Shown here: positions 12,949 through 30,183 of the stretch, one piece after another
Layout: each line of letters starts with the position of its first letter
Numbering within the stretch: position 1 is the first letter of the stretch
Source of the DNA: Candidatus Bathyarchaeia archaeon
GTDB taxonomy: Archaea; Thermoproteota; Bathyarchaeia; Bathyarchaeales; Bathycorpusculaceae
DNA length: 64,000 nucleotides
Reading direction: 5' to 3'
Assembly (NCBI GenBank): GCA_049512935.1
Contig: JBEKWR010000006.1
Span: forward strand, 32,001 to 96,000
Program-made: the position numbers and the translations under genes
Notes under the pieces: model-generated
What the model saw: only the letters and a program-made list of their open reading frames with translations
Told to the model about the DNA's origin: nothing
Databases searched by the model: none

Positions 12949-12977
12949 ACATTAATTATTGCGAAAATAAGATATTT

Positions 12978-13008: not shown

Positions 13009-13027
13009 ACTCATCTAGGCACATTAA

Positions 13028-13220: not shown

Positions 13221-14159
13221 ATGCCGTTTAAAACCGTAAAGAAGGATGCGGCAGATGCCTTAACGATAGAATGGGGTTTGCAAGTTAAAAATTACAAGTT
13301 AACCCTTGACAAGAAACGCTGCGTCAGCTGCCAAATATGCAGTTTAGCCTGCCCGAAAGAGGCGATAACAGTGCAGAAGCAGCCTAAAGTTGCGGGGGAA
13401 AAAGCCAAAAGAGCCAAAGTCGACGTTGACTTGGCGAAGTGCAATTTCTGCGGAATCTGCGACGTCACATGCCCCTACGGCGCAATCAGGGTTACTTTGA
13501 ACGACAAGCACGAGCTTAACCTTCTGGCGAAGGACAGCTTTCCACAGCTTGTCAGGGACATAAAAGTTGACACGCGCCACTGCACCAAAGAATGCGTCGA
13601 ATGCGAAACAGCCTGTCCCTTAGGGTTGATAACGGTGTCTAAAGTCGGTTTTGACGGCAAACCAGTGGAAAACGTTGATGCCCTGTCGCCGAGCGCTAAA
13701 GACCGCGTTCAGGTTAGCCTCGCCATCAAAAGCGAGTACTGCCCAACTTGCAGGGTGTGCGAGTTCAAATGCAGCCCAGGCACCATAAAAGTCAAGAAAG
13801 CCTACGACGGCGTAATCGCCATCACACAGGAAAAATGCCCAGAAGGCTGCACAGACTGCCTTGACGTTTGCCCAATCCCAGGCGCGCTTGTTCTCGAAGA
13901 AGACAAGAAAGTTCATGTTAACGATTTGTTCTGCACTTACTGCGGCGCATGCAAAAACGTTTGCCCCGTTCCCGAAGCCCTCATGGTTAAACGCACGGCA
14001 ATACACCACACACCCATCCATTCAGGCGCGTGGAACAAAGCCTTAGAAAGATTAACCTCGCCAGCTGACGCGGCTAAAGAGTTCCGAAGCGTGGCTGGTG
14101 AGAGCAGGCGCAAGGCAGTAGGTAAAAGATTCCCAGCCTTTGAGGAGACGGAAAAATGA
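13221..14159 (+). CDS. Polyferredoxin (FwdF/MvhB-like)
   Basis: Six CxxCxxCxxxC-type 4Fe-4S motifs; directly upstream of hdrA. Confidence 0.9.
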
Positions 14160-14205
14160 GCACATCACAAACTTCCAAAAGATTCAACTTAGAGGAGATA
14201 ATGAA

Positions 14206-16713
14206 ATGAGCAAACCAGAAGCCCCAAAACAACCCGAAACCCAAAAACCAGAAGAACTGCGGATCGGCGTTTTCATCTGCCACTGCGGCATGAACATCGC
14301 AGGAACCGTGGACGTACCATCAGTCGCCGAGTACGCAAGAACCATACCCGACGTAGTCTACGTTAAAGAAAACCGCTACACCTGCGCTGACCCGGGACAA
14401 GAAGAAATCAGAAAAGCAATAAAAGAACAAAAATTGAACCGTGTCGTCGTAGCCGCTTGTAGCCCAAGGATGCATGAGCCAACATTTCGGAAAACCGTAA
14501 GTGAAGCAGGGTTAAATCCCTATGTGTTTGAAATGGCGAACATACGCGAGTTCGCTTCTTGGTGCCATCCCAATGCTCCAAAAGAAGCCACAGCAAAAGC
14601 AAAAGATATCGTAAGGATGGCTGTCGCCAAGGCGAGGCTGCTTAAGCCTCTTGAAACCATGGAGGTTCCTGTAACCAAAAACGCCTTGGTTATCGGCGGC
14701 GGCATTGCCGGCATCAACTCCGCTCTGGATTTGGCGAATATGGGGTTCCAAGTATACCTTGTCGAGAAGAACACGAGCATAGGAGGACACATGGCACAGC
14801 TCGACAAGACTTTTCCGACTTTGGATTGCAGCATATGAATTGAAGGACCTAGGATGGTGGAGGTAAATCGCCATCCTAAGGTCCAAGTAATAACCAATGC
14901 GGACATCCTCAGTGTGGAGGGGTTTGTAGGCAATTTCAAAGTTAAGGTCCGCAAGAACCCAAAGTACGTTGATGCCAAAAAATGTACTGGCTGCGGGGAA
15001 TGCAAAGACGCCTGCCCAATAGAATATCCCAATGAGTGGGATATGAACTTAGGCGTAAGAAAAGCCATCTCCATTCCGTTTGACCAAGCAGTGCCTCTGA
15101 TCTACTCGATAAACAGGGATTACTGCATAGAGTGCTTCAAATGCGTGGATGCCTGTGGTGCGCGTGAAGCCATCAACTTTGACCAAAAGCCCGAAGAAGT
15201 TGAATTGGACGTTGGAGCAATCATTGTAACAACGGGTTGTGACATTTATCTACCATATGATGACGCCACGTACGGCTATGGAAGATACGATAACGTAGTT
15301 ACAGCTTTGGAGTTTGAGAGACTCATCACAGCGGGCGGTCCAACAAGTGGACACGTAGTCCGCTCATCCGATGGAAAGACACCGAAAAGCGTTGCCATCA
15401 TTCAATGCGTCGGTTCAAGGGACGTAAACAAGTACGAATACTGTTCAGGTTTCTGCTGCATGTATGGGCTCAAAGAAGCCATCCTTCTGAAAGAACATTA
15501 CCATGATGACGTGGAAGTCTACATTTTCTACATGGATATGCGCACTCCCGCCAAAGGTTATGAAGAATTCTATCGACGAGCCCGTGAAAAGGGAATTACC
15601 TTCGTCATGGGAAAGCCGTCCCGAATAATGGAAGACCCAAAGACCAAAAATTTGATTATCCGAGCAGAGGACACGAAGCTGGGGCAGCCCATCGAAGTCG
15701 AAGCGGAGATGGTTGTGTTAAGCACAGCCGCCATACCGAGTAAGGGAGCCGAAGAATTGGCCAGCATCCTCCACATAACGCGAGGGTCAGACGGGTTCTT
15801 CATGGAAAGTCACCCGAAACTCAAACCAATGGACACGCCTATGGACGGAGTATTCCTAGCAGGTGCTTGCCAAGGACCAAAGGACATACCCTACAGCGTA
15901 GCCCAAGGAAGCGGCGCGGCTTCAAGAGCTGCCACCATTCTTTCGCAGCCGAAATGGAAGATAGAACCGATTGTCTCCATCGTTGACGTCGCCAAATGCA
16001 GAAACCCGAAAGCAAAGTGCGGTGTATGCGTGAAAAGCTGCCCCTTCGGAGCCATAACCGCGGTTGAGGGGCAACCAGCCCAGATCAACGCAGCTCAGTG
16101 CCATGGCTGCGGAACATGCGTTGCTGAATGCCCACAAGACGCCATAACCCAGATGCACTTTACGGATGAACAAATAACCTCACAAATCAGAGCCGCGCTG
16201 GAAAGGGACCCTGAAGACATTATACTGACGTTTATGTGTAACTGGTGAGGTTACGCCGGCGCGGACCGAGCGGGGACGAGCCGGCTTGAATACCCTCCGA
16301 CGACGAGGGCTATTCGGGTAATGTGCACAGGACGGGTAGACAGAGACTTCGTCATGGAAGCCTTTAGACTGGGAGCCGGAGGCGTATTGATTACCGCCTG
16401 CCATCTTCCCAACGACTGCCACTACATCTCTGGAAACGTCAGGATGAAAGCGCGCATGGATGCCTTAGCTGGCATGCTTCAAAAGCTTGGATTGAGCCCG
16501 CATAGATTCAGGGTTGAGTACGTTTCGTCAGCTGAAGGAGAGAAATTCGTCAGCATCATCAAGGAAATGACTAGTCAAATGCAAGCTTTAGGCAAAGACA
16601 AGATACTCGCGGAAAACGCAAAGCTTCGACCAACCTTAGAGAACATGCTGAAACGCAAAGCAGCCGCCCCAGCCCCTGCAGCTAAACCCGCCGATCAAGC
16701 ACCCGCAAAGTAG
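14206..16713 (+). CDS. hdrA: Selenoprotein HdrA-MvhD(VhuD) fusion, 835 aa, Sec at residues 211 and 681
   Basis: Three track ORFs share one frame, separated only by TGA 14836-14838 ([20 protein letters not shown]) and TGA 16246-16248 ([18 protein letters not shown]). SD GAGGAG precedes ATG 14206; FAD motif VIGGGIAG; QCVGSR; ferredoxin motifs. Confidence 0.93.
14845..14884 (+). promoter_or_regulatory. Stem-loop 6 nt after first in-frame UGA (candidate recoding element)
   Basis: GGACCU-AGGAUGGUG / CGCCAUCCU-A-AGGUCC: 15 bp, one bulged A, 9-nt loop. Confidence 0.65.
16255..16285 (+). promoter_or_regulatory. Stem-loop 6 nt after second in-frame UGA (candidate recoding element)
   Basis: GCCGGC/GCCGGC closing stem, internal tandem GA/GA, GAGCG loop. 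Confidence 0.5.
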
Positions 16714-17033: not shown

Positions 17034-18215
17034 ATAATCCGATCCAGATGGAAATGCCTCACAATTCTCTGTTTAATACTTATCTTAGTCGCAAGCTTAG
17101 GTTTACCCGCTAAAGTGAAAGCACAATCAAATGGATTAACCCAACAGATTCCGCCGATGGACTTACACCCCGTAACGACTCAGCCTCAGCCTGATGGCGG
17201 CTTCATTAAAGATTGTGGTGTTTCTCAAGACGATGTCTGCAGCTCAAGCTGGATGGTATGGAGGGATTACACGCAGATGGGCAACCCGCTAACTGAGAAA
17301 CTGGAGGGTGGCTTTGGAGAAACCGTCAACGGAACTGAGTTTACTCTGGGCTTCGGTCTAACCTCATTTATTCCTCCACCCCAAGCCCCAAATATTCCGG
17401 TGGGAACGATAAGCCAGACAACAGACAACCCATGCGGAATCTGGATAAGCTGCCAGTACGGAGCATTCCCAATCTGGCTCTACAATGCCACAGACGTGAC
17501 AACAAATTCAGGTCAGGTCACAACAGTCAATGGGTTGCCGAGTGTCACACTTAATGAGACATTCAGCAACATCCAGCTCGACACAGGCGGGCACGGTGAC
17601 TCCACAGTGAATCTTGTTGTAAGCCAACAAATAACTGGTAACGCCACCACCATGATAGCTCAAGTCAATGTCTACGCCGACCTGAGCAACATGCACTTTT
17701 ACCTGCCTGACGGCACAGAGATACCGCAGGGCACCGACTACTCACTTAACCTCCTGTGGATAACTGGATTATCCAATGGAACCGAGTCGGCACAGCTCGG
17801 ATACTTTACTGCTTATCCATATACAATCATCGGGAACTCATTATACTTCATTGTGAACGGCGAAGTAGGCAACATTGCAGGCATAACTTTAAGCGACAAA
17901 TACGTGGAAAGCCAAGGTGCAAATCAAATGTCAAGCCGCCAAGCACAAGTCCAGTTCATAAGCACTAACGCAACTGTGGGTGCACATCGTGCACCAGAGT
18001 GCCTCTGTCTCCAAACGTTCCCAAACCTGACCTACGGAGTTACTACTAGCGTGCAGAGCGACCCCACCATCTACATGAACCATGCATTAATGTCGACTCT
18101 TCCCCTAATCACTCTCATTGTTGTCGTGGCTGTTGTAATTGCTGCATGCGTCGTTCTTTTCCGATATCGAAAAAGATTCAGGAAGGGAGCTAAAAAAATA
18201 AATGCCGAAACTTAA
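17034..18215 (+). CDS. Secreted, C-terminally anchored hypothetical protein (start uncertain)
   Basis: In-frame signal-peptide-like stretch upstream of track start 17115; C-terminal TM plus basic tail. Confidence 0.65.
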   Translation: MIRSRWKCLTILCLILILVASLGLPAKVKAQSNGLTQQIPPMDLHPVTTQPQPDGGFIKDCGVSQDDVCSSSWMVWRDYTQMGNPLTEKLEGGFGETVNGTEFTLGFGLTSFIPPPQAPNIPVGTISQTTDNPCGIWISCQYGAFPIWLYNATDVTTNSGQVTTVNGLPSVTLNETFSNIQLDTGGHGDSTVNLVVSQQITGNATTMIAQVNVYADLSNMHFYLPDGTEIPQGTDYSLNLLWITGLSNGTESAQLGYFTAYPYTIIGNSLYFIVNGEVGNIAGITLSDKYVESQGANQMSSRQAQVQFISTNATVGAHRAPECLCLQTFPNLTYGVTTSVQSDPTIYMNHALMSTLPLITLIVVVAVVIAACVVLFRYRKRFRKGAKKINAET

Positions 18216-18385
18216 TGCTTAATGAAATCCCAAGCTTGTGGCTTGATAGTATTCTGGGACTTTTCTTAATCTAATCATTAAAATCACCCAACGCGCGTTT
18301 CTGAGCGGAATATGTCTATGTTGCCGAGTGAATACAGAAATCGCACTGCGAGAAAAATTATTCAGCAGCTGAAGGCATCAATCGG

Positions 18386-18475
18386 GGCGTCCCACGGCTA
18401 GGCGGTCATAGCATCGGACTTCAAATCCGGTGAGCCCGCAAGGTCTCGGAATCCGATTCCCCTTGGACGCCGCCA
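18386..18475 (+). tRNA. selC: tRNA-Sec(UCA), degenerate copy
   Basis: 90 nt, 4 substitutions vs 19425-19514, three of which break D- and T-stem pairs. Confidence 0.75.
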
Positions 18476-18504
18476 CTATACCACTGCAAAATCTGGCAAG
18501 AAAT

Positions 18505-18942
18505 TCACTTGAAAGGATTTACGACGTTTAGAAAGTTATATTTCTTGAAGTCATCAACATTTTCTGTATAAATGCATTCCACTTTGTCATCTTTGGCTGT
18601 GACCGCCATGGCGCAGTCGAAAATCTTGCCTTTAGTCACTTTCATTTCCTTCGTTAACCTCAAAACGTCCATGACTGCATTCGATGCTGGATTGATCTTC
18701 TCGATTTCGCGGCATTCCCAAAAGTCGAGGCATACATTTACGGCTTCACTTAATTTCATTGGAGACTCCACTCTCTTGGGATTCGTGATTACCGCAAAAA
18801 ATTCATATATCACTTGTGCAGTCAAACATGCATCAAGTTTTCCAGTCATCGCATCCTCAATTACGGCGCTGGCGCGTTTCTGAAAAGGAGATGACTTGTT
18901 ATGGGCGTGAACAAGGATATTGGTGTCAAGTAATGTCTTCGT
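18505..18942 (-). CDS. VapC/PIN toxin lacking a canonical start (ACG)
   Basis: In-frame (T)KTLLDTNILVHAH upstream of first ATG; QVIYEF, IFDC, IYTEN motifs. Confidence 0.7.
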   Translation of the reverse strand, partial: TKTLLDTNILVHAHNKSSPFQKRASAVIEDAMTGKLDACLTAQVIYEFFAVITNPKRVESPMKLSEAVNVCLDFWECREIEKINPASNAVMDVLRLTKEMKVTKGKIFDCAMAVTAKDDKVECIYTENVDDFKKYNFLNVVNPFK

Positions 18943-19168
18943 AGATTTCCTCTCGCGAAAGTTTCCCTTTTATTTTCCCTAAGTCAGGTGGATTCTTAAG
19001 TCTTTTAAGAATTCGGGCTGCTGCATCGCAGCTGCGTGCAATTTCCAATTTGGCTACCCCTTTCTCGACAACCTCGATGCGCAATACGTCGCCTTCAGCT
19101 AGTCCCAGCCGTTCTTGGACTTCGCGTGGGAGGTATACCTTATCTTTATAGAACGTGGTTTCAGTCAT
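18926..19168 (-). CDS. AbrB/MazE-type antitoxin
   Basis: VYLPREVQERLGLAEGDVL; overlaps the PIN gene. Confidence 0.8.
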   Translation of the reverse strand: MTETTFYKDKVYLPREVQERLGLAEGDVLRIEVVEKGVAKLEIARSCDAAARILKRLKNPPDLGKIKGKLSREEIYEDIT

Positions 19169-19424
19169 GCACTCATCATTTACCCAATAAGTTGGGCAAA
19201 ATATAAGCGTTTACCCAAAGACTCACCCAAACCCTTGTGAAAACGAGTAGCAAGAAGCTTGAAAGATTCGATTGAAAGATAAAGCCCGAAGGATAATTAA
19301 TGAACGCTGCAGAAGCTTAAAATGGGTCTACAGCGGTCCAGAGCGGAATATGTTTATTTTGGCGAGTGAATACAGAAATCGCACTTCGAGACAAATTGCT
19401 TCATAGCTGAAAGCACCAGTTGAG

Positions 19425-19514
19425 GGCGTCCCACGGCTAGGTGGTCCTAGCATCGGACTTCAAATCCGGTGAGCCCGCAAGGTCTCGGGGTCCGATTCCC
19501 CTTGGACGCCGCCA
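19425..19514 (+). tRNA. selC: tRNA-Sec(UCA)
   Basis: 90 nt; 9-bp acceptor (one C-U mismatch), 4-bp T-stem, 6-bp D-stem with UGGU loop, 6-bp anticodon stem with CUUCAAA loop, long variable arm, G73, encoded CCA. Confidence 0.95.
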
Positions 19515-19574
19515 TCGCTCACAGTTTCAAAACAGCTCAGAATGAGTTCTCAATAACCAGCATGATGGGCTCGG

Positions 19575-20006
19575 TTGTCACAAGACATAAAAACAATTGA
19601 GGATACCTTACTGGGTATGAAGAGCCGTTCGCTAAAGGGCGAATCCCCGTCTCAGCTGATAGATGCGAGAATCAAGGAGCTTGGCGACTGGCGAGGCGAG
19701 ATGCTCTTACACCTCCGTGCTCTCATCAAGCAAGCCGATCCCGGAATCGTTGAAGAATGGAAGTGGGGGATTCCTGTGTGGTCTCACAATGGATTGGTCT
19801 GCACAGGCGAGACGTACAAGAGCGTCGTGAAGATGACTTTCTCCAAGGGTGCCTCGTTGAAAGACCCCTCGCACCTCTTCAATTCGAGCCTCGAAGGTAA
19901 TACAAGGCGCGCCATTGACTTCCATGAGGGTGACGAGGTTAACGAGAAGGCTCTGATTGCTCTTGTTCGTGCAGCCGTGGCTGCGAATGCCTCGACCCGT
20001 GTCTAG
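19575..20006 (+). CDS. DUF1801 (YdhG-like) protein
   Basis: EEWKWGIPVW, KGASLKDP...LEGNTRRAID. Confidence 0.85.
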   Translation: MSQDIKTIEDTLLGMKSRSLKGESPSQLIDARIKELGDWRGEMLLHLRALIKQADPGIVEEWKWGIPVWSHNGLVCTGETYKSVVKMTFSKGASLKDPSHLFNSSLEGNTRRAIDFHEGDEVNEKALIALVRAAVAANASTRV

Positions 20007-20064
20007 TGTGCCAAACTTCGATAGCTCCCTCTCCTTGCTGAACGGAATGGTCCAGAGGAAGTGA

Positions 20065-21396
20065 TCACGTCACTGTTTTCAAAACGGTGTCTAACCTCTC
20101 TGCTGCTGTGGTGATTTCGTTTTTTTGTATTCCTATGCTGGCGTCGAAGTTGATGTAGGATGAGACGTACTGTGGGCAGCACACTCCGAAATCGTTTTTT
20201 TCCAGCGCTCTTGCGCCGTTGACCCTTGCCGCGTACAAGGCTTTGCCTATTTTCTTGGCGTCTCTTCCATCTAGCGTCATAGCCACGGATATTGGATTGT
20301 AAACATTCAGTATTCGCTGTCCGTGCCTCTCCGCCACCGCCTTGAGGGATGATTCAAGGAACCGCCTGTTTTCTTCCTGCTGGGTTCTCAGCTTCTCGTA
20401 CCCGTCTAATCCTATCGACAGTACGGCTGCTAGGAACTGCGCTATGGGAGCGGCTGTTGCCCTTCCCGCGTAGATTTCAGACACGGCGTCTAGGAATTCT
20501 TCGTTGGGCGCGGCGACTATTGCTCCTCCGACTGGGGTTAGGAAATTCTTGTCTGTGCTCTGGATTATGGCGTCCACGCGTCCTGCGTCGATTGCGCCTC
20601 TTACGAGTTTCATGATTTCGCGGCTCTGCACTCCGAAGGCGTTGTTTATGATATGCGGCACTTTCTTCTCCTGTGCGATCTTTGCGATTTCTTTGATTTT
20701 ATCTGGTTCTCTGGGTGAAAAGAAAGTGGTTGTTGACAGAATCGCGGCGGTATTTTCGTTAACTGCTTTTTCTATCTCTTCTGGGGGAACGTTCACTGCG
20801 TCTCCGCAGACTTCTCCTGCCACTATTCTTTCTTGAAGACCTGCAAGATGAATCGCCTTCAGTGGAGTTTTAAGGTCAATCTGTGGGTAAACAACCTCTT
20901 TTCCCCCAGTTTGGTTTCTTGCGGCGCACAAGGCAAGAGCAAGCGTCATTCCTGTTGCCACAGGAAAAACCACCGCCTTCTTGATGTTTGGAACCCCGAA
21001 CCTTTTCATGGCGTCAGTTGCCAATTTGTTAGCGAAATAATACATGAGAGACCCACCTGCCGCCTTAGGCTGGGCTTCGGTCAGGTCACCTGACCTTCCT
21101 ACCCCATGATGAAATCCAAATGCCAGCTTTGAAACCACTGGAGAAGCAACCCTGCCCTCGCGTTCGCCTAAGAAAACTGCTTTGCTGTCCTTGTCCGAAT
21201 CCATTGCAGACAGCAGATTCAGCAGCGTTTCGATTTGGCTGTCTTTCCAGCCTTCTTTTGGTATTCTTCTTTGCTCGAAAAGTAGTTTTATCGACTGGGA
21301 CTCTGTGCCCAGCACTGTCAAGCCCCTTTCAAGTATGCTCTTTGGGATTGTGTCCTTCAACTTATCAAACGGCAACATAAAACATACCTTTAGCAC
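20065..21396 (-). CDS. spcS: O-phosphoseryl-tRNA(Sec) selenium transferase (SepSecS)
   Basis: GEREGRV, HGVGRSGDL.E.QPKAAG, HIINNAFG, QSTDKNF (PLP lysine), YAGRA. Confidence 0.95.
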   Translation of the reverse strand: MLKVCFMLPFDKLKDTIPKSILERGLTVLGTESQSIKLLFEQRRIPKEGWKDSQIETLLNLLSAMDSDKDSKAVFLGEREGRVASPVVSKLAFGFHHGVGRSGDLTEAQPKAAGGSLMYYFANKLATDAMKRFGVPNIKKAVVFPVATGMTLALALCAARNQTGGKEVVYPQIDLKTPLKAIHLAGLQERIVAGEVCGDAVNVPPEEIEKAVNENTAAILSTTTFFSPREPDKIKEIAKIAQEKKVPHIINNAFGVQSREIMKLVRGAIDAGRVDAIIQSTDKNFLTPVGGAIVAAPNEEFLDAVSEIYAGRATAAPIAQFLAAVLSIGLDGYEKLRTQQEENRRFLESSLKAVAERHGQRILNVYNPISVAMTLDGRDAKKIGKALYAARVNGARALEKNDFGVCCPQYVSSYINFDASIGIQKNEITTAAERLDTVLKTVT

Positions 21397-21549
21397 TGTC
21401 GGGCTCCCGATTTGTCTTTCCCTGTATATAAATTGTTAGTTTTGGCATCGTGGAGTCTGACGCGACTTGACTACATTTGCTGGCATTTAGGGGATGCAAC
21501 CACTTGATAAGCCTTAAATAGCGTTCTCTTGCACAATAAGTATGCAGTG

Positions 21550-21771
21550 ATGGCAATGGGAAGAATAATAATCATAGATGACGATTCTCCCACAACCAGA
21601 GGAAAATTGATAACTTGCCCGATATGCAATGGTACAGGAAAATGCAAACCTTGTAAAGGTACAGGTACTGTTTGGGATAGAAGAGGTCCTTTTATAACAA
21701 ATAATTGCGAGGGCTGCGGTGGAACTGGTAACTGCCCAAGATGTCACGGTGACCGATACATTAGAGTCTAA
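21550..21771 (+). CDS. Small DnaJ-type zinc-finger protein
   Basis: Four CxxCxGx(G) repeats. Confidence 0.75.
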   Translation: MAMGRIIIIDDDSPTTRGKLITCPICNGTGKCKPCKGTGTVWDRRGPFITNNCEGCGGTGNCPRCHGDRYIRV

Positions 21772-21784
21772 CAGGAGTGTTGCA

Positions 21785-21976
21785 TTGGCAAAACCTAAAG
21801 TCATCACTCTCGATCAAATGAAAAACGAATTGTCTAAAACTTATTGTGATGTCCATACGTGCAGTCGAATGGCAGAACTTATTTTTAAAACTGAGGATAA
21901 TGAGTTGTGGCTTTGTTTCTGCAAGAATCATGATCCAAGAAACTGGAAACCAGTCTATCCCACATCTAAGAAATAA
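21785..21976 (+). CDS. Small Cys/His-containing hypothetical protein
   Basis: SD AGGAG before TTG; CxxxxC...CxCxxH. Confidence 0.55.
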   Translation: MAKPKVITLDQMKNELSKTYCDVHTCSRMAELIFKTEDNELWLCFCKNHDPRNWKPVYPTSKK

Positions 21977-22127
21977 CTTGTAAATCTCAAAGCTAAACTT
22001 TGATTATCTAAATATTGTTACTTGTTCGTTAATTCAAACAGGCACACCTCCATTAAACGCCTTTGGCGAGCCCGATGCTCGACACAATTATAAACCCAAG
22101 ACGGCATAGACAACTGGGGAAAACAGG

Positions 22128-24323
22128 GTGTCGCAGAGTTATCCTTACCTGCTTATAATGTGCGGATTGCCTAGTTCAGGAAAGACCACCATCAGCAAAA
22201 ACGTCGCCTCCCTGCTTGAGGACAAACACGAGATATCGACCATGGTCATCAGCTCGGACGATTTTCGGGACATGCTCTCGTACAGCTCCAAAGGATTCAA
22301 GCCTGAGCGGGAAGCGTCGGTGAAGGCTCTTTATGAGAAGGCGATTGCAACTGGTTTGGAAGCTGGTTTTCTCGTCATCAGCGATGACTTAAACTACTAC
22401 AAATCGATGAGGAGCGAGCTTAGGCAGATTGCTAAACGGTCAGGCTCCGACTACGACATTGTCTTTGTTGATACACCCGTTGAGGTAGCCGTCAAATGGA
22501 ACCAAGAACGAGGGTCGCCGATACCGCAGTCCCTCATTGAGGAAATCAATCAGAAACTTGACCCGCCCAAAGGCGACTACAAATGGGACACTCCCCTCGC
22601 CGTTGTCGACCCAAGCAAGCAAAGCTTAGAGGGAATCGCCAGTGCCATCGTTACTGCGGTTCTGAAGAGGCTGGAAAACCCGATTAGGTCCAAGCCCAAA
22701 AAAGTTGTGGAAGACGAGAAATCACTGAGGGCAAGAGGCATTGAGCGGGAAACCCGAAAAGCCATGATGGAGGTCATGACGCGGTACAAGAACCCGGACT
22801 TGGGCATTTCTCTTTCCGCCATCAGAAAAGAAGTGGTGCACAAGGCGCTGGCGGACGGCTTGAAGCCTGTAGATGCGGTCGAATTGTTCCTCAGGGAAGC
22901 CAATGCGGTCGCAAAAAGTTACGCCGTGACTGAAGGCAAGGGCCTCATTCCCGTTCATGTGGGTCTTTTCGGGCATGTTGACCACGGCAAGACAATGATT
23001 GCCCGGCAGCTAACTGAGAAACCTTCGACGGCTGCATTGGACAAGGCACCGGACTCCGCCCGCCGTGGAATGACGCTGGACATGGGCTTCTCCGCTTTCA
23101 CCTTAGGTCCGTACCTGGCTACTCTCGTCGACTTGCCGGGGCACTTCAGCTTGGTCAGGCATGCGGTGGCGGGCGCCAACATAATTGACGCGGCGGTGCT
23201 GGTTGTGTCCGCCGACCTCGGATTGCAGGTTCAGAGCGTGGAGCATTTCGCAATAATCAAAGACGTGGGAATAAAGAATCTTGTAGTTGCCCTCAACAAG
23301 GTTGATTTGGCGTCCAAAGAGAGAATTGATGAAGTCAAGACAAAAGTCAAGCTTCTCCTAAAGGGAACTCCATACGAGAACGCAAAGATTGTGGAGGTCT
23401 CAGCCTTAACTGGCAAGGGAATTGATGAACTCAAACGCGCCTTGCAAGATTCCATCAGTCCACCCATTCGCCAGTGGAATGGCCCGTTCAAGATGCCTAT
23501 CGACCACGCATTCACCATAGCCGGAGTAGGAACTGTCTTAACTGGCACGATTCACCGTGGGAAAGTTAAGGTGAAAGACACCGTTGAAATCAAGCCCATC
23601 GACAAAAAAGGTCAAGTGCGTTCGCTGCGGTCATTCGGCGAGGACAAAGAGGAAGCTATCGCTGGAGACAGGGTAGGCGTCGCCGTCAAAGACCTAAAAC
23701 CTGATGACGCTCACAGGGGTTACGTAGCCGTTTCTCCTGGCTCCATCAGTTCTACCCGCCGAGTGATAATCGAGTTGGAAGTGGACAAGTACTATCTGCG
23801 TCCGTTGACGCCGTACAGCGATGTAGATGTGTTTGTTGGGTCTTATGAAGTGCTGGGAAACGTTGTGCCCGGCGCCGTGGAAGACGGCAAGTTCGTTGTG
23901 AAGCCGTCGGTGAAGGCTCCTGAAAAATGCCTAGTTTACATAGAACTCAGACAACAAGTCGTGGCGGAAAGAGGAGACCACATGCTCTTGATGAACCCTG
24001 GACTCCAAGCCCGCGAATTCCGAATAATCGGCGGAGGAAGAATCACTGAGACAGACAGCAAACTGGAATTCTTCTCAAAAAAGACCAAACAGGGAACTGC
24101 AGGACAAAAAAGAGAAGCCGACGAGTACTCAGTGACGGGTCTCTTTGGCACCTCGGAAGCTGCCTCCAAATTCGTGGGAAAACAAGTTGTTACAGCAACG
24201 GGAGTTACAGGCGAAATCAGGGCTTCGCTGTCATTGGGCGAAGTTTCAGTCAAGTTCAAAGAACCCGTGCACGAAGGCGAAAAAGTATTTCTCTACGTCT
24301 ACAAGAAGTTAAAAATCAAATAG
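22128..24323 (+). CDS. pstK-selB: Fusion of L-seryl-tRNA(Sec) kinase (PSTK) and Sec-specific elongation factor SelB
   Basis: N-terminal GLPSSGKTT, DDLNYYKSMR, NQERG..IP, YKWDTP (PSTK). From about residue 275: GHVDHGKT, RGMTLDMGFSAF, VDLPGH, NKVD, MPIDHAF and a short archaeal/eukaryal-type domain IV (SelB). Confidence 0.95.
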   Translation: MSQSYPYLLIMCGLPSSGKTTISKNVASLLEDKHEISTMVISSDDFRDMLSYSSKGFKPEREASVKALYEKAIATGLEAGFLVISDDLNYYKSMRSELRQIAKRSGSDYDIVFVDTPVEVAVKWNQERGSPIPQSLIEEINQKLDPPKGDYKWDTPLAVVDPSKQSLEGIASAIVTAVLKRLENPIRSKPKKVVEDEKSLRARGIERETRKAMMEVMTRYKNPDLGISLSAIRKEVVHKALADGLKPVDAVELFLREANAVAKSYAVTEGKGLIPVHVGLFGHVDHGKTMIARQLTEKPSTAALDKAPDSARRGMTLDMGFSAFTLGPYLATLVDLPGHFSLVRHAVAGANIIDAAVLVVSADLGLQVQSVEHFAIIKDVGIKNLVVALNKVDLASKERIDEVKTKVKLLLKGTPYENAKIVEVSALTGKGIDELKRALQDSISPPIRQWNGPFKMPIDHAFTIAGVGTVLTGTIHRGKVKVKDTVEIKPIDKKGQVRSLRSFGEDKEEAIAGDRVGVAVKDLKPDDAHRGYVAVSPGSISSTRRVIIELEVDKYYLRPLTPYSDVDVFVGSYEVLGNVVPGAVEDGKFVVKPSVKAPEKCLVYIELRQQVVAERGDHMLLMNPGLQAREFRIIGGGRITETDSKLEFFSKKTKQGTAGQKREADEYSVTGLFGTSEAASKFVGKQVVTATGVTGEIRASLSLGEVSVKFKEPVHEGEKVFLYVYKKLKIK

Positions 24324-24549
24324 CCAGTTTCCTTATACGCCGAATCTCCTTCAGTCAGAAACAACATTTCCGCAGTTTAGCGCTCAAAGTATCGGTGATG
24401 TAAGCATGAGCCTGCATAAGATCGGCAGCATGGAGGTCAGACATCCAAGCGATTGAAACGGTATGACGTCTTAACGGTTTTTTCCATATCAATTAAAATA
24501 TAACTTACGAGCAAGGTTTTCCACAGTATTGATATAGCATTGTCGAAGG

Positions 24550-26694
24550 ATGAGGGAAGGAGACATGAACAAAATAACCAAACCAACCACTGTTATCTTA
24601 ACAGTCTCAATCATAATAGTATTATTGGTGTCCCTTGGAACACTAAACATCTCTCGAGCATTTCAAGCATCTGGTTTAAACGCGAACCTTACGCTTTACG
24701 CTTCTGCAGGCGACCAAAACTCCGGAAGTGACACCGCCCAGGTATATGTCACAGGCGGCACTGGGCCACACTTGACTTTCAACTGGTATGTTAACAGTGA
24801 ATATGTTCAAACGAACTATGGCGATTATGCTTCGGTCGGCGATTACGCGTACGGTTATTTTGATTTCGCGTTTTCCTTCTCGGATCTTAACCTCGGCTCA
24901 AACACCATTTCCTGTGAAGTCACGGACAGCGCTTCCAATGAGGTCACGGCGACTGCAGGTTTCTATTTATACCCTCCACTCTCAGTGACCGTTTCACCTA
25001 ACCCTGAAACTGTAGATTCGGGTCAATCTGCCACGTTTACCGCCGATGTATCAGGCGGTTCAGGGTCTTATTCGTACCAGTGGACTTCTCAAAGTGCCGC
25101 GCCAGTTGGTGGTACGACATCTTCAACGCTTACTTGCACCGCCCCAACTGTTGTGCAAACCACTCAATACGCTGTTTATGTAAAGGTGACCGACGCCCTT
25201 CCCGCCTGCGACGGACTCAGCCTCTGTGATTCTTCTCTCACGCCAAACCTCACAGTTAATCCTCTACCAACCGCCACTGTTTCTCCTGCCAGCGCCAATT
25301 TGGCTGTTGGATCAACTCAGCAATTCAGTGTTCTTTCAGCGAGCGGCGGCACAGGGTCGCTGAGTTATGAATGGTACGTCAACAACCATGACCATGGCAC
25401 CGGTTACGATACTGGTGATTCAGGCCCAATTTACTATTACACTGCCGCACCCGACGACGCTACCTTCACACCAAGCGTTTACGTCGAGGTTACTGACAGC
25501 CTCGGTGGAATTGGCGATTCCAACTATGCAAGCGTAAACGTGAACTCCGCTTCTTCTGTCAGTGTTACTGTTTCTCCAGATCCTTGCACTATGTATGTCG
25601 GAGGCACCCAGACTTTCACGGCTTCAGCCACAGGCGGCACGGGATCCTATACTTACGACTGGTATCTCAACGGCGCTGATACTGGACAAACTGGTTCAAC
25701 TTTCGATTATACTGCTCAAGCAGGAGACGTTAACACTCCACCCAGCATTTACGTAGTCGCATGGGACACCAATCTCAATGGTGGGACATCTAACACTCCC
25801 ACCATAACCGTAAATCCTTTCACCGCAATTGTTTCCCCAAGCGCTTGGACCATGGACGTTGGGCAAGTGCAAACATTCACGGCTTCTGTCTACGGCGGTA
25901 CCCCACCGTTCGATATCGAATGGTACGTCAGCAACAGTTTTTATGGTTCCGACGTCAATGTTCAATCAGGAGGAACGTCTTTTGACTACATTGCTCAATC
26001 CCAGGACACCAGCTATCCACCCAGTATTTATGCCATCGTTACTGACAGCAGTACCCCACAGTTACAGGCTACTTCTAACGTGGCGACAATCACAGTGAGC
26101 TTTGGTCCTGTTAACCAGGCGAGCACAGGAGCGAGCGGCACCGTGCAAGGCGGCTCTGTAACGATAGATGAGTCATCAACAACAGGTGTCTCCGCAACCA
26201 TCTCAACTCCCACAGGAACTCCTCTACCGGACGGCACACAGATTGATGTTAACTCAGCGTCTTACGGAAGCACCCCGCCAGCGGAGGTAACTACACCGCC
26301 GCCCATATCTATAACTGGCGGAGGAACGGCGATCTATTATGATGTTTCGGTTTCACAAGGCGGCGGCGCTCCTTTGGGGTCAAACGTTAATGTTCAAGTA
26401 AGCTTTACCGACCCAAGCATCACCAGCTCAAGCACCATAGCGTATTGGGATGCCTCTACTAGCAGTTGGATTCAAGTGACTCCCACAGTCTTCACAGCTC
26501 CCGACACAATATCCGGCAGCATCCCTGCATCCGCTTTAACAGGAACACCCATCGTAGTAGGCTCTCCACAACCTGTTTTCGTCGCACCCGAATACTCCAT
26601 CGGCGCCCTCCTCGCCGTAATCGCATGCTTCGCAGCCTTCATCGCAATTCGCAAACCACACGCCCCCGCCTTGCTAAACCGCAGCAAATACTAA
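24550..26694 (+). CDS. Cell-surface protein with PKD/Ig-like repeats and PEF-CTERM-like sorting signal
   Basis: Repeated VTVSP...FTA..SGG.G.Y.Y.WY; C-terminal VAPEY-TM-basic tail. Confidence 0.8.
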   Translation: MREGDMNKITKPTTVILTVSIIIVLLVSLGTLNISRAFQASGLNANLTLYASAGDQNSGSDTAQVYVTGGTGPHLTFNWYVNSEYVQTNYGDYASVGDYAYGYFDFAFSFSDLNLGSNTISCEVTDSASNEVTATAGFYLYPPLSVTVSPNPETVDSGQSATFTADVSGGSGSYSYQWTSQSAAPVGGTTSSTLTCTAPTVVQTTQYAVYVKVTDALPACDGLSLCDSSLTPNLTVNPLPTATVSPASANLAVGSTQQFSVLSASGGTGSLSYEWYVNNHDHGTGYDTGDSGPIYYYTAAPDDATFTPSVYVEVTDSLGGIGDSNYASVNVNSASSVSVTVSPDPCTMYVGGTQTFTASATGGTGSYTYDWYLNGADTGQTGSTFDYTAQAGDVNTPPSIYVVAWDTNLNGGTSNTPTITVNPFTAIVSPSAWTMDVGQVQTFTASVYGGTPPFDIEWYVSNSFYGSDVNVQSGGTSFDYIAQSQDTSYPPSIYAIVTDSSTPQLQATSNVATITVSFGPVNQASTGASGTVQGGSVTIDESSTTGVSATISTPTGTPLPDGTQIDVNSASYGSTPPAEVTTPPPISITGGGTAIYYDVSVSQGGGAPLGSNVNVQVSFTDPSITSSSTIAYWDASTSSWIQVTPTVFTAPDTISGSIPASALTGTPIVVGSPQPVFVAPEYSIGALLAVIACFAAFIAIRKPHAPALLNRSKY

Positions 26695-26778
26695 GCTGGC
26701 GCTCGTCACAAAACTCCAAGCAAGTCCTTGAAAACATGCTAAAACGCAATTAAAAACCCATTTTCTTTTTCCCCTGTT

Positions 26779-26982
26779 TTAGGACTTGCTTGTTTTCTTA
26801 AACCATGCTATGCCTATCACGATGACTGTTAGAGCTGCAGCGGCGGCGACTGGGTTGATGCCTGGCGCGGTAATGTAGGTTTCAGCGAGAAGCGCCGCTA
26901 CAGTTATGAGCGAAACCGCGATTACCGTGCCCACGGCGATGGTTTTGTTGCTCACCTTAACGTCAACCTGCCTGTTCTGCAC
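26779..26982 (-). CDS. Small two-TM membrane protein
   Basis: Two hydrophobic helices and a basic tail. Confidence 0.55.
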   Translation of the reverse strand: MQNRQVDVKVSNKTIAVGTVIAVSLITVAALLAETYITAPGINPVAAAAALTVIVIGIAWFKKTSKS

Positions 26983-27112
26983 GGATAAAAAACAGGTTTT
27001 TGATTTAATTCTACGCTTTAGAACAGCATGTTCAGTTAGTAGGACACTTTTGCCCAGAAAGTTTCTTAGGCAAGAAAAATTTTGTTTATAAACGTTTAAA
27101 AGGGAAAAAGGT

Positions 27113-27409
27113 TTAGTCTTCTTCGTCGAATCCGCGGTTTTTGATTTTAAGCTGGTTTTCTTTTTCGCCGATGACTCTGAACCGTTCTGTCAGGTCATGC
27201 TTGTGCAGAAACTTCTTTACAGTTATCTTCACGTACTTCTTGCTTAGTGCTTCGCCTTCGCCTTTCACCGTGACAACTTGCTCTGCCGTGGACACTTCCC
27301 CGCCTGTTTTCTCCTTCAGGAAATCTGACAGCTTCGAAACCAGGTCCTTCTCCTCGTGTTTAAGATCTGACGCGTCGACTTTCATCTCAACAACTTTTGA
27401 TTCACTCAT
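27113..27409 (-). CDS. rpl22e: Ribosomal protein eL22 (L22e) homologue
   Basis: LSKKYVKITVKKFLHKHDLTERFRVI resembles eL22 [26 protein letters not shown]; acidic tail; SD GAGGTGA before ATG 27409. Confidence 0.75.
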   Translation of the reverse strand: MSESKVVEMKVDASDLKHEEKDLVSKLSDFLKEKTGGEVSTAEQVVTVKGEGEALSKKYVKITVKKFLHKHDLTERFRVIGEKENQLKIKNRGFDEED

Positions 27410-27587
27410 ATTCAATTCACCTCGGTTCACGTGCGCCCATAAGCTCATGTTTAGCAATGCATCTCACTAAAGCTTCACTGATAAGTTTTCCGCTGCCAAC
27501 CCACCCGCACATCCAAAAGAAAAGCAACGAAAACGTCAACCTATGCCATTTTGGGTGCAGCACAACCTAGCGGGAAAATGTTGGGGG

Positions 27588-28346
27588 CTAACTCTTTTGG
27601 CTTCTTGTGAAGTACGCGGAAAAAATCGCTAACCTGTCAATGGGGTAGAAAATAAGCATTGAGTAACATTTTGTTTTGCGTACGACGGCTACGGCGCGAA
27701 TCGGGCTGGTCAGCAGCAGCCGAAAACAGTTCACCTTGTCCCTTCCACTGTAGGACGGCAACGAAAGCATGTGTATGCGAAGGTCATGCTGAATGGTCTC
27801 GCCTAAGCCAGCTCTTGTAATATGGTCGGAGACAACGTCTGAGAGGACAACCCACTTGTACCCCGCTTGCCGCATCCGCGCGGGACTGGAAGACTCGCAG
27901 AAACCAAACCGTTTCACGACGTCGGTTCGGCAGAGGTTGTTGTCGACGCTGCGCTTGTCAGGTCTGTTCTGGTACTCGTAAGCGTCAAGCTTGCGCAGCC
28001 TCGGCTCGGTGGAAAGACGTATGCCCTGGACAACGCCGACATGCGGGTCTTTCATGGCTTCAAAGGCTTTGCGCCACCAGTCACGGCTCAAAAGCACGTC
28101 ATGCTCGAAGCTGGCGAAGAGTGGCGTGGAAACGAGGCTCAGCGCCGTCTGCTTGTTAGCCTGTAACCCCCTGCCTCTGTTAAAGTGGACTTCCCAACCG
28201 AACTCCTTAGCGATCTTCACAGTCTGGTCCGTGCTGTGGTCGTCGCTGATGATTTTTCGGTTGACGCACTCGGCAGGTATTACCTCGGAGATTCTTTGAA
28301 GCACGGCTGGCAAAAGTTTTTCACTGTTAAAAGTCCACATAATCAA
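27588..28346 (-). CDS. Glycosyltransferase family 2
   Basis: TFNSE, ISDDHSTD.T, FEHD. Confidence 0.75.
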   Translation of the reverse strand: MIMWTFNSEKLLPAVLQRISEVIPAECVNRKIISDDHSTDQTVKIAKEFGWEVHFNRGRGLQANKQTALSLVSTPLFASFEHDVLLSRDWWRKAFEAMKDPHVGVVQGIRLSTEPRLRKLDAYEYQNRPDKRSVDNNLCRTDVVKRFGFCESSSPARMRQAGYKWVVLSDVVSDHITRAGLGETIQHDLRIHMLSLPSYSGRDKVNCFRLLLTSPIRAVAVVRKTKCYSMLIFYPIDRLAIFSAYFTRSQKS

Positions 28347-28748
28347 GTCGATTTTGCCTATTTTCGCCGTTTCAGAATCACCTGCTTAACGTTTTCCAAA
28401 CTTTTCGGGTTGGACTTTGCTGATAGCAATGGCAAAAAACTTGTATTTATCAGTTGCTAACAAATCGCCAAGTTCACTTTTAACAGGGCGGCAATCTGAA
28501 AGCCGACGCAATCGATGGATTGCTTGTGCTCATCATGCATCGTGAAGAGGGCTCAGCCAACCAAGAAACGTTGACTGTTGCCGTTTTGGTTTTTTCGTCA
28601 GTTCGCCCGTCGAGTCAATATCACCGCCGAAAGGCTCAGTGACTCTAGTGCTCATCATCCAAACCATAAATTGAGCGGCAATCCTTAAGACTGTTACGGC
28701 AGATTTCTTCATCGAAACTTGCAATGGAATATTTTGCAGGTGTTATTC

Positions 28749-29084
28749 TCACTCGTTGTCTAAAATTTCTTGAAGGAGAGGCTTTAACGGAGGTAATTCG
28801 CATTTTGCCGTGTCCCATAGATCTTTGAACTCGACTTTAGGGTATTCATGGGCTAAGAAGTTTCTTGCGGATTTCATTCTTGCCCAGGGAATTTGGTTGT
28901 ATTTCTGTCTTATTTCGAGTGGAATCAGCTTCACGTTTTCGCCTATGAGTAGCAGATTCATGGAAACAGCTTTTATCGCCATTTTGTTTTGGAGGAAGCC
29001 CTCGTATGTCAGGTTTTTAGTGAATTCCTCGACTTCTAAGATCGCTTCAAGAATTTCGTTAATGTACACTTTGAAGTTTTTCAT
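28749..29084 (-). CDS. HepT/DUF86 HEPN ribonuclease toxin
   Basis: IGE, IPW, RNFLAHEY (RX4HxY). Confidence 0.9.
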   Translation of the reverse strand: MKNFKVYINEILEAILEVEEFTKNLTYEGFLQNKMAIKAVSMNLLLIGENVKLIPLEIRQKYNQIPWARMKSARNFLAHEYPKVEFKDLWDTAKCELPPLKPLLQEILDNE

Positions 29085-29374: not shown

Positions 29375-29533
29375 TCCAAGCCACCTTCGGTTAACAGGGT
29401 AATTATTACGTTAACCAATATTTATTTTCGCCTTCGGTGTGTGCGTTTAACGCACTTTATCAGGCAATGCATTTGCGGAGTATTGTTTTTATTTTCCGCA
29501 AGTGTTCTCCCTTTCAAGGAAGTTGATCTGGCT

Positions 29534-30055: not shown

Positions 30056-30183
30056 CACCAGCCAAAAACGAAAAGTCGAAGCGTCGGCAGAAAAAGCATA
30101 TATGACTTAAACCCCACTCTTCTTGAAAGACACACAGGTGAAACAAGACGGCTTCGTCTAACGCTGAAGAAAACAACAATGAG

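What the first reader, a model, noticed from the sequence alone, without database searches (positions are those of the whole stretch)
22128..24323. Single-polypeptide PSTK-SelB fusion
Seen: one uninterrupted 731-aa ORF with a complete PSTK kinase (about residues 1-265) followed by a complete SelB GTPase (P-loop GHVDHGKT at 282-289). Known: these are normally separate proteins acting before and after SepSecS. Inference: the fusion may channel tRNA-Sec from phosphorylation to ribosomal delivery. It raises the question of how the usually dimeric archaeal PSTK is accommodated on an elongation factor, and how premature delivery of Sep-tRNA is avoided.
Basis: partly seen in the sequence, partly recalled or inferred. 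Interest (0 to 1): 0.88.

Follow-up and report, generated by a model that had tools for sequence, protein, structure and literature searches.

The report
Known PSTK–SelB fusion, selenocysteine gene cluster
This is a real, intact gene that joins the selenocysteine tRNA kinase (PSTK) to the selenocysteine elongation factor (SelB) in one protein, but the fusion was already described in Bathyarchaeota in 2022 and is common in environmental sequence data.

Summary
Window 22128-24323(+) is one uninterrupted 731-aa ORF. Residues 6-250 align with nearly the whole M. jannaschii PSTK. Residues 276-722 align with all four domains of M. maripaludis SelB. The SelB P-loop is at 282-289. Metagenome contigs from four runs cross the junction without indels.

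The novelty claim fails. Mukai et al. [quoted passage not shown] Of the 120 best database relatives, 113 carry both domains.

- The fusion lies in a compact cluster with SepSecS (20065-21396, -) and tRNA-Sec (19425-19510, +).
- An HdrA2-like gene with two in-frame TGA codons lies upstream.
- In a 201-genome sample of the window's class, the fusion and SepSecS occur in the same 5 genomes.
- None of those 5 has SepRS or SepCysS, so the published "shield Sep-tRNASec from SepCysS" rationale does not apply to them.
- The PSTK module is predicted to form a homodimer through residues 24-81, far from the junction.

Verdict: already known, with no experimental work found in my searches. Interest is low to moderate.

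The parts
22128..24323 (+). PSTK-aSelB fusion ORF, 731 aa plus stop, GTG start
22128..22622 (+). PSTK N-terminal kinase domain (about residues 1-165). Holds P-loop G13-x-P-x-S-G-K19-T, D44, D86-D87-x-N89-Y90, W124-N125-x-x-R128 and W153-D154. Predicted homodimer interface at residues 24-81.
22716..22913 (+). PSTK C-terminal helical domain (about residues 197-262; helices 197-220, 223-243 and 247-262), aligned with the C-terminal domain of M. jannaschii PSTK. T209, R210 and R233 are invariant in 47 fusions.
22914..22946 (+). Junction: a short coil (about residues 263-273) between the last PSTK helix and the first strand of the G domain. The sequence varies but the length is constrained.
22947..23462 (+). 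SelB GTPase domain (about residues 274-445), with G1 GHVDHGKT at 282-289, DLPGH at 335-339 and NKVD at 390-393
23463..23759 (+). SelB domain II (about residues 446-544), with conserved PIDHAF (457-462) and AGDRVG (512-517)
23760..24053 (+). SelB domain III (about residues 545-642; Pfam aSelB_III at 550-641)
24054..24320 (+). SelB domain IV (about residues 643-731; weak Pfam eEFSec_4th match at 645-723; aligned to the end of 4ac9_A)
20065..21396 (-). SepSecS (O-phosphoseryl-tRNA(Sec) selenium transferase), transcribed divergently from the fusion
   Evidence: TIGR03531, 483.5 bits against a 224.85 cut-off
19425..19510 (+). tRNA-Sec (anticodon TCA)
   Evidence: RF01852, 64.5 bits against a gathering score of 47
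14140..16713 (+). HdrA2-like (HdrA-MvhD/VhuD fusion) selenoprotein gene with in-frame TGA at 14836-14838 and 16246-16248. It indicates that the Sec machinery is used. The true start may be the ATG at 14206.

Best explanation
The ORF is an intact member of the already described PSTK-aSelB fusion class of Bathyarchaeota-type archaea. It is the only PSTK and the only SelB in this genome, and it sits in a compact selenocysteine cluster with SepSecS and tRNA-Sec. The likely mechanism is inferred from the two parent families and was not assayed. The N-terminal module (kinase domain plus helical tRNA-binding C-terminal domain) phosphorylates Ser-tRNASec to Sep-tRNASec. SepSecS, encoded next door, converts Sep to Sec using selenophosphate from SelD, which is encoded on another contig. 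The C-terminal four-domain SelB binds Sec-tRNASec with GTP and delivers it to UGA codons, for example the two in the HdrA2-like gene 5-8 kb upstream. A tether of only about 10 residues, with tightly constrained length, joins the two modules. The kinase module probably dimerises through residues 24-81, which would give a two-armed (PSTK-SelB)2 particle. The fusion most plausibly fixes 1:1 stoichiometry and keeps tRNASec near both its first and its last handler. In this lineage it cannot serve to shield Sep-tRNASec from SepCysS, because no SepRS or SepCysS was found.
For: Identity and integrity: searches show full-length alignments to solved PSTK and aSelB, with SelB over the NCBIfam cut-off. 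In 47 fusions down to 40% identity, D86, D87, N89, Y90, W124, N125, R128, H283, H286, G287, K288, T289, P337 and G338 are invariant. G13, G18, K19, D44, D335 and H339 are at least 90% conserved. In the 110 proteins where both motifs matched my patterns, 109 have PGH and 101 have NKxD, and the P-loop-to-G1 spacing is 259-265 residues (70 of them at 264). No indel at the junction in contigs of 4 runs. Only copy: in the own genome (93% complete) the fusion is the only KTI12/PSTK match above 25 bits and the only SelB over cut-off. Pathway context: SepSecS and tRNA-Sec lie beside it; SelD is at G000:C11 (233.9 bits); the HdrA2-like gene read with TGA=U matches model positions 1-658 and 660-774 of 777 on either side of the second TGA. 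Conserved linkage: SepSecS is adjacent to the fusion in 4 of 4 other fusion-bearing genomes, with tRNA-Sec over cut-off within 2.5 kb of the fusion in 3 of those 4. In a 201-genome class sample SepSecS is over cut-off in exactly the 5 genomes that hold the full-length fusion. Single group: 44 fused PSTK domains fall on one side of a branch with SH-aLRT 100 against 84 standalone PSTK-like proteins (quick tree). Dimer: ipSAE 0.77 against a best control of 0.00; the mark was reached by 20 of 30 solved one-chain pairs and 1 of 23 single chains; runs agree in at least 62% of contacts; partner pLDDT at least 84. AF2 model: pLDDT 87.6, pTM 0.66. Prior description: PMC8762117 section 3.4.1.
Against: No enzymatic, binding or expression data exist for this protein. 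The PSTK part scores 145.1 bits, below NCBIfam's equivalog cut-off of 290.5, so kinase identity rests on alignment to the solved M. jannaschii enzyme, motif conservation and context. The dimer pass may reflect memory of solved PSTK dimers, and my own alignment was used, so the calibration holds only roughly. A pTM of 0.66 does not fix the relative position of the two modules. I could not see coordinates or PAE, so no channel between the active sites is shown. No SECIS was identified downstream of the HdrA2-like gene: the fold of 16714-16830 has z = 0.21 and Rfam gave no hit. Absence of SepRS/SepCysS rests on genomes that are 84-98% complete, and zero overlap between 5 and 30 genomes out of 201 is not statistically unusual (about 0.75 expected by chance).
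Confidence: 0.9

Rival explanations
1. Published rationale (Mukai et al. 2022): the fusion keeps Sep-tRNASec away from SepCysS in archaea that use the SepRS-SepCysS route to Cys-tRNA but lack the adapter SepCysE. This would prevent Cys being inserted at Sec codons.
For: PMC8762117 section 3.4.1 reports that one Archaeoglobus species has the fusion together with SepRS-SepCysS and no SepCysE. It places some Bathyarchaeota lineages among Sec users with an indirect Cys route but no SepCysE. The review PMC9499178 repeats this. SepRS does occur in the window's class: 30 of 201 sampled genomes at E<=1e-60, 29 of them over cut-off.
Against: In the window's genome the best SepRS match is 50.3 bits (cut-off 380.65) and the best SepCysS match is 38.9 bits (cut-off 365.25), while CysRS is present at 508.9 bits. 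None of the other 4 fusion-bearing genomes has SepRS or SepCysS over cut-off. None of the 5 fusion-bearing genomes is among the 30 SepRS-bearing genomes of the same sample. The review itself notes the hypothesis does not hold for Sifarchaeia. Caveats: incomplete genomes, only five related cases, and SepCysE was not searched. The shield could still explain the origin of the fusion in an ancestor.
Confidence: 0.07
2. Artefact: two adjacent genes (pstK and selB) joined by a sequencing or assembly error that removed a stop codon or a frameshift. Mukai et al. report PSTK and aSelB ORFs split by a stop codon in a Sifarchaeia lineage, so such a split form exists.
For: The window comes from a metagenome-type assembly of 49 contigs. 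Split forms exist elsewhere.
Against: Contigs of 4 runs from 4 studies cross the junction with no indel. 113 of the 120 listed relatives from several independent sources are fused. Fusions down to 40% identity keep the frame, with spacing of 259-265 residues.
Confidence: 0.01
3. The N-terminal module is not an active kinase. It would be a KTI12-like or degenerate tRNA-binding ATPase that only adds tRNASec affinity to SelB, with phosphorylation done by another protein.
For: Pfam files the module under KTI12. It is below the NCBIfam PSTK cut-off.
Against: Its best PDB match is M. jannaschii PSTK at 101 bits, against 20 bits for a KTI12 structure (6qp0_A). The P-loop and the other conserved kinase-domain positions are invariant or nearly so. 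No other PSTK-like gene above 25 bits is in the genome, yet SepSecS needs Sep-tRNASec and a two-TGA selenoprotein gene is present.
Confidence: 0.02

Closest known systems
[quoted passage not shown] 2022, Front Genet, PMC8762117, section 3.4.1 and Fig. 9; repeated in Front Microbiol 2022, PMC9499178)
   Same: One ORF with PSTK N-terminal to aSelB. It is part of a Sec gene cluster. The closest named relatives (82-86% identity) are labelled Bathyarchaeota or Bathyarchaeia.
   Different: Nothing in the architecture differs. In this genome and in the 4 other fusion-bearing genomes of the class sample, no SepRS or SepCysS was found, so the paper's functional rationale does not fit them. I could not see the paper's figures or supplements to check which lineages it sampled.
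Standalone archaeal PSTK (M. jannaschii; PDB 3adb, 3a4l)
   Same: Aligns over residues 11-245 of 259, covering both the kinase domain and the C-terminal tRNA-binding domain. A homodimer is predicted.
   Different: Here the C-terminus runs on after about 10 residues into a GTPase. Standalone PSTK-like proteins fall outside the fused group in the tree.
Standalone archaeal SelB (M. maripaludis; PDB 4ac9) and Asgard aSelB of about 460 aa
   Same: Four-domain alignment, 256 bits. Standalone SelBs, one of them labelled Lokiarchaeia, are 43-45% identical to the SelB part.
   Different: Those proteins start at the G domain and have no N-terminal kinase.
Sifarchaeia pstK-selB pair 'split by a stop codon' (PMC8762117, section 3.4.2)
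   Same: Same gene order, PSTK then aSelB.
   Different: There the two are separate ORFs; here there is one uninterrupted frame.
CysN-CysC (EF-Tu-like GTPase fused to APS kinase)
   Same: A translational-type GTPase and a P-loop kinase in one chain. NCBIfam NF004035 gives a weak match of 90.9 bits against a cut-off of 715.
   Different: The domain order is reversed and the score is far below cut-off. SelB-specific domains III and IV and the PSTK C-terminal domain are present here. This is an analogy only.

Membership tests
PSTK (L-seryl-tRNA(Sec) kinase) | P-loop GxxxxGK[ST] and conserved kinase-domain acidic and basic positions | tested here: met
   G13-L-P-S-S-G18-K19-T20. In 47 fusions D86, D87, N89, Y90, W124, N125 and R128 are invariant, and D44, G13, G18 and K19 are at least 90% conserved. 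Which of these are catalytic is recalled, not tested.
PSTK (L-seryl-tRNA(Sec) kinase) | Two-domain layout: kinase domain plus C-terminal helical tRNA (D-arm) binding domain | tested here: met
   Aligns to residues 11-245 of the 259-residue 3adb_A. The AF2 model has helices 197-262. Domain roles are as stated in PMC9499178 (passage).
PSTK (L-seryl-tRNA(Sec) kinase) | Score over the curated NCBIfam equivalog cut-off (TIGR03574) | tested here: not met
   145.1 bits against a cut-off of 290.5. It is a divergent member, so I file it as PSTK on structure-based alignment, motifs and context, not on the HMM cut-off.
PSTK (L-seryl-tRNA(Sec) kinase) | ATP-dependent phosphorylation of Ser-tRNASec | not testable with these tools
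   Needs a biochemical assay.
Archaeal SelB (aSelB / EFSec) | Score over the curated cut-off of TIGR00475 | tested here: met
   280.5 bits against 242.25; 282.4 bits in the genome search.
Archaeal SelB (aSelB / EFSec) | GTPase motifs G1, G3 and G4 | tested here: met
   GHVDHGKT at 282-289, DLPGH at 335-339, NKVD at 390-393. Of the 110 fusions scored, 109 have PGH and 101 have NKxD.
Archaeal SelB (aSelB / EFSec) | Four-domain archaeal architecture | tested here: met
   Residues 276-722 align with residues 20-475 of the 482-residue 4ac9_A. Pfam aSelB_III scores 25.8 bits against a cut-off of 19.
Archaeal SelB (aSelB / EFSec) | Selective binding of Sec-tRNASec with GTP and delivery to UGA | not testable with these tools
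   Only conservation of PIDHAF and AGDRVG was seen. Their role in the aminoacyl pocket is recalled.
PSTK-aSelB fusion class (Mukai et al. 2022) | PSTK and aSelB in a single ORF without a stop between them | tested here: met
PSTK-aSelB fusion class (Mukai et al. 2022) | Belongs to the same sequence group as the other fusions | tested here: met
   All 44 fused PSTK domains used, including this one, fall on one side of a branch with SH-aLRT 100 (quick tree). 3 fusions were left out by my motif filter.
PSTK-aSelB fusion class (Mukai et al. 2022) | Host has SepRS-SepCysS without SepCysE (the basis of the published rationale, not of the architecture) | tested here: not met
   No SepRS or SepCysS over cut-off in G000 or in G187, G103, G110 and G037. 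SepCysE was not searched because I had no model accession for it.
CysN-CysC bifunctional enzyme | GTPase N-terminal to APS kinase, and score over cut-off | tested here: not met
   The order is reversed. NF004035 scores 90.9 bits against 715, and apsK scores 31.6 bits against 138.7.

The most novel reading that the evidence does not exclude
The fusion is a single-origin innovation that, in this class, is the only form in which the Sec trait exists. It travels as a compact tRNA-Sec / SepSecS / PSTK-SelB module scattered over four families (5 of 201 genomes). It is kept in lineages that have no SepRS or SepCysS. Its purpose would then not be to prevent crosstalk. Instead it would build a dimeric (PSTK-SelB)2 scaffold that, together with SepSecS, holds tRNASec from phosphorylation to ribosomal delivery: a 'selenosome' comparable to the transamidosome and the transsulfursome.
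Probability: 0.25. Interest if true: 0.6.

Novelty: already known. Interest (0 to 1): 0.27.

Why it matters
The architecture is already in print, so this window adds another member rather than a discovery. It still matters in three ways.

1. Databases label these proteins only as "selenocysteine-specific elongation factor". A genome like this one then looks as if it lacks PSTK.
2. My literature searches found no experimental work on the fusion. How a dimeric kinase and a monomeric elongation factor cooperate on one chain is still open.
3. In this sample the fusion occurs without SepRS or SepCysS. That removes the only published functional rationale for these lineages and points to stoichiometry or channelling with SepSecS instead.

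The fused protein is also a compact natural part for work on archaeal and eukaryote-type selenoprotein expression.

Tried and rejected
- **Assembly artefact:** rejected (and homologues).
- **KTI12 rather than PSTK:** rejected.
- **CysNC-like enzyme:** rejected.
- **SECIS search:** Rfam at E<=10 on 16650-17150 gave only chance-level hits to unrelated families. The MFE fold of 16714-16830 was no better than shuffles (z = 0.21). No SECIS was identified.
- **RNA evidence:** no RNA holder was listed among the 24 runs, so nothing can be said on expression.
- **Insertion site of the cluster:** a DNA comparison of window 11000-30900 with five same-genus genomes showed synteny only in G187. In G038, G157, G193 and G175 the flanks matched on different contigs or about 45 kb apart, so no clean insertion site could be defined.
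- **G138:** it has a 400-aa SelB-like match (39% identity) but no SepSecS and no tRNA-Sec over cut-off. I did not count it as a fusion.
- **AF2 model:** coordinates and PAE were not available to scripts, so inter-domain contacts could not be measured.
- **Tree:** this is the quick tree because the careful search did not finish in 288 s. The root is at the midpoint only. P0092, P0105 and P0127 were dropped because my junction pattern missed them.
- **Motif count:** 122 stored proteins of 680-780 aa were examined. 110 matched both patterns. 11 fusions missed one pattern (truncated N-termini or variant residues). One (P0282) is the unrelated HdrA-like protein.
- **Supplements:** Supplementary Figures S2 and S3 of PMC8762117 may show which Bathyarchaeota lineages carry SepRS together with the fusion, and could qualify my non-co-occurrence result.
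- **What I read of each paper:** PMC8762117, passages and section 3.4 whole. PMC9499178, PMC13188914, PMC11602143 and PMC8211752, passages only. The last three did not mention the fusion in the passages shown.
- **Recalled, from no call:** that M. jannaschii PSTK is a homodimer, and that Asp/His/Arg of SelB domain II line the aminoacyl pocket.
Full report
**1. The observation**

Window 22128-24323(+) is a single ORF of 731 codons with a GTG start and no internal stop.

- **Pfam:**
  - KTI12/PSTK-family P-loop kinase at residues 8-220 (E 2.2e-36)
  - EF-Tu-type GTPase at 277-443
  - EF-Tu domain 2 at 468-533
  - archaeal SelB domain III at 550-641
  - a weak eEFSec fourth domain at 645-723
- **NCBIfam:** the C-terminal part is over the curated SelB cut-off (280.5 against 242.25 bits). 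The N-terminal part has PSTK as its best specific hit but is below cut-off (145.1 against 290.5).
- **Solved structures:** residues 6-250 align with residues 11-245 of the 259-residue M. jannaschii PSTK chain. Residues 276-722 align with 20-475 of the 482-residue M. maripaludis SelB chain.

**2. The junction is real**

Contigs from four DNA runs (peat and wetland metagenomes, four studies) were laid on 21900-24400. They show no insertion, deletion, joint or loose end. Single contigs bridge the junction in three runs. One of the runs may be the source of the window.

Independent support comes from relatives. Of the 120 best-listed proteins from NCBI, JGI, ENA and Logan, 113 carry both PF08433 and PF00009 in one chain (most are 700-740 aa). 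Two of the remaining seven are fragments on contigs of about 1.5-1.8 kb, and five are standalone SelBs of about 460 aa.

In alignments of 15 and 47 fusions reaching down to 40% identity, the frame is kept and the kinase and GTPase motifs are invariant or nearly so. I examined 122 stored proteins of 680-780 aa, and 110 matched both motif patterns. In these the distance from the kinase P-loop to the SelB G1 motif is 259-265 residues, with 70 at 264.

**3. Context**

SepSecS lies divergently upstream at 20065-21396(-) (483.5 bits). tRNA-Sec is at 19425-19510(+).

The own genome (2.30 Mb, 49 contigs, 93% complete) gives the following:

| Search | Result |
|---|---|
| KTI12/PSTK | no other match above 25 bits |
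| SelB | no other match over cut-off |
| SelD | present on another contig, 233.9 bits |
| CysRS | present, 508.9 bits |
| SepRS | best match 50.3 bits, cut-off 380.65 |
| SepCysS | best match 38.9 bits, cut-off 365.25 |

The machinery appears to be in use. ORFs 14140-14838, 14854-16248 and 16321-16713 are one frame interrupted by TGA at 14836-14838 and 16246-16248. Read with TGA=U, the pieces match HdrA2 model positions 1-658 (917 bits) and 660-774 of 777 (135 bits). This is an HdrA-MvhD-type selenoprotein with two Sec codons.

**4. Prior knowledge**

Mukai et al. [quoted passage not shown] They show a typical Bathyarchaeota Sec gene cluster, and they propose that the fusion protects Sep-tRNASec from SepCysS where SepCysE is missing. 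The review PMC9499178 repeats this.

The closest named relatives of the window's protein (82-86% identity) are labelled Bathyarchaeota or Bathyarchaeia. The finding is therefore a further member of a described class.

Full-text searches for PSTK with SelB, fusion and archaea, for "PSTK-SelB", for "PSTK-aSelB"/"aSelB", and for Bathyarchae with selenocysteine and PSTK found no experimental study of the fusion. Subscription journals are not covered by that library.

**5. Distribution**

In 201 genomes drawn from the window's class, a full-length match to the fusion occurs in 5:

| Genome | Relation to the window | Identity |
|---|---|---|
| G000 | own genome | 100% |
| G187 | same genus | 91% |
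| G103 | same class | 45% |
| G110 | same order | 43% |
| G037 | same class | 41% |

- All other matches are EF-1alpha or aIF2-gamma-type paralogues.
- SepSecS is over cut-off in exactly these 5 genomes. In this sample, every Sec user has the fused form.
- In the four other genomes SepSecS is adjacent to the fusion. It lies directly downstream on the same strand in three, and is divergent in G187 as it is here. tRNA-Sec over cut-off is within 2.5 kb of the fusion in three of the four.
- Within the genus, only 2 of 12 sampled species have the cluster.
- At the level of 50%-identity representatives, 7 of the 9 best hits to the PSTK part are fusions of 704-737 aa. Standalone proteins of 250-270 aa follow.
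- In a quick maximum-likelihood tree, 44 fused PSTK domains form one side of a branch with SH-aLRT 100 against 84 standalone sequences (three fusions dropped; midpoint root only). This is compatible with a single origin.

**6. Test of the published rationale**

SepRS is present in 30 of the same 201 genomes (29 over cut-off), but in none of the 5 fusion-bearing ones. SepCysS is likewise below cut-off in all 5.

The shield-from-SepCysS explanation therefore cannot account for retention of the fusion in these lineages. The caveats are real:

- The genomes are 84-98% complete.
- There are only five related cases.
- Zero overlap is close to the chance expectation of about 0.75.
- SepCysE itself was not searched.
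- I could not see the paper's supplements.

**7. How it probably works**

Shown here:

- Both modules are complete.
- The motifs are conserved.
- The fusion is the only copy of each function in a genome that uses Sec.
- It is linked to SepSecS and tRNA-Sec.

Inferred from the parent families:

- The kinase module makes Sep-tRNASec.
- SepSecS makes Sec-tRNASec.
- The SelB module delivers it.

The AF2 model (47-sequence alignment; pLDDT 87.6, pTM 0.66) places a coil of only about 10 residues (263-273) between the last PSTK helix (247-262) and the first G-domain strand (274-282). Confidence is low only at the PSTK inter-domain linker (about 185-200), the junction, and switch I (304-310).

Two copies of residues 1-265 are predicted to pair symmetrically through residues 24-81:

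- ipSAE was 0.77, and the best of three controls was 0.00.
- The mark was reached by 20 of 30 solved one-chain pairs and by 1 of 23 single chains.
- The runs agree in at least 62% of contacts, and the partner's pLDDT is at least 84.
- Solved PSTK dimers exist, so this pass shows likeness rather than proof.

Premature delivery of Sep-tRNASec is most simply avoided by SelB's own aminoacyl discrimination. The PIDHAF and AGDRVG segments are conserved; their pocket role is recalled, not tested.

**8. Verdict**

The architecture is already known and common.

- The non-co-occurrence with SepRS and SepCysS.
- The one-to-one match between the fusion and SepSecS in the class sample.
- The tight linker-length constraint.
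- The predicted dimer geometry.

Noticed in passing
window 14140-16713 (+): HdrA2-like (HdrA fused to an MvhD/VhuD-type domain) gene with two in-frame TGA codons, at 14836-14838 and 16246-16248. Read as Sec, it matches the HdrA2 model continuously (positions 1-658 and 660-774 of 777). The second TGA falls in an 'FMCNW-U-GYAGAD' context. No SECIS was identified downstream.
   Followed up: partly
window 19425-19510 (+): In the Rfam alignment the tRNA-Sec has a 9-bp acceptor stem with one non-standard C/U pair at the 8th position, a 4-bp T stem, and a 6-bp D stem with a 4-nt loop. The review PMC9499178 describes a 7-bp D stem as typical for archaea.
   Followed up: partly
protein P0079 (730 aa, on a 3.05 Mb contig; 54% identical to the window's protein): A divergent fusion whose GTPase motifs look degenerate: GHCKHGKT in G1, EMPGN in place of DLPGH, and SKID in place of NKVD. 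Its kinase motifs are intact. It may be a GTPase-impaired variant.
   Followed up: no
window about 11380-11500: A short element of about 40-110 nt that matches dozens of places in the same-genus genomes G038 and G187 at 70-100% identity. It looks like a dispersed repeat of unknown nature.
   Followed up: no
window 21407-22080, including ORFs 21529-21771 and 21719-21976: The spacer between SepSecS and the fusion holds an 80-aa Cys-rich ORF (CxxCxGxG repeats; DUF7895 at 29 bits). In the otherwise syntenic same-genus genome G187 this spacer gave no DNA match, so these small ORFs may not be conserved genes.
   Followed up: partly
window 4095-4169 (-) and 7655-7729 (-): Two tRNA-Cys(GCA) genes lie 3.5 kb apart. 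The second scores lower in Rfam (41.8 against 53.9 bits).
   Followed up: no
window 24550-26694 (+): Directly downstream of the fusion is a 714-aa Ser/Thr/Gly-rich protein with an N-terminal and a C-terminal hydrophobic segment and Ig-like repeats (Pfam Ig_3, 3.5e-14). It is probably a surface protein.
   Followed up: no
G138:C283:1604-2485 (locus L026): A 400-aa open frame 39% identical to the G domain and domain II of the SelB part. The genome has no SepSecS and no tRNA-Sec over cut-off. It may be a contaminant contig or a SelB-like paralogue.
   Followed up: no
class sample of 201 genomes: The Sec trait is rare and patchy. It is found in 5 of 201 genomes in four families, and in only 2 of 12 species of the window's genus. 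This suggests repeated loss or transfer of the compact cluster.
   Followed up: partly
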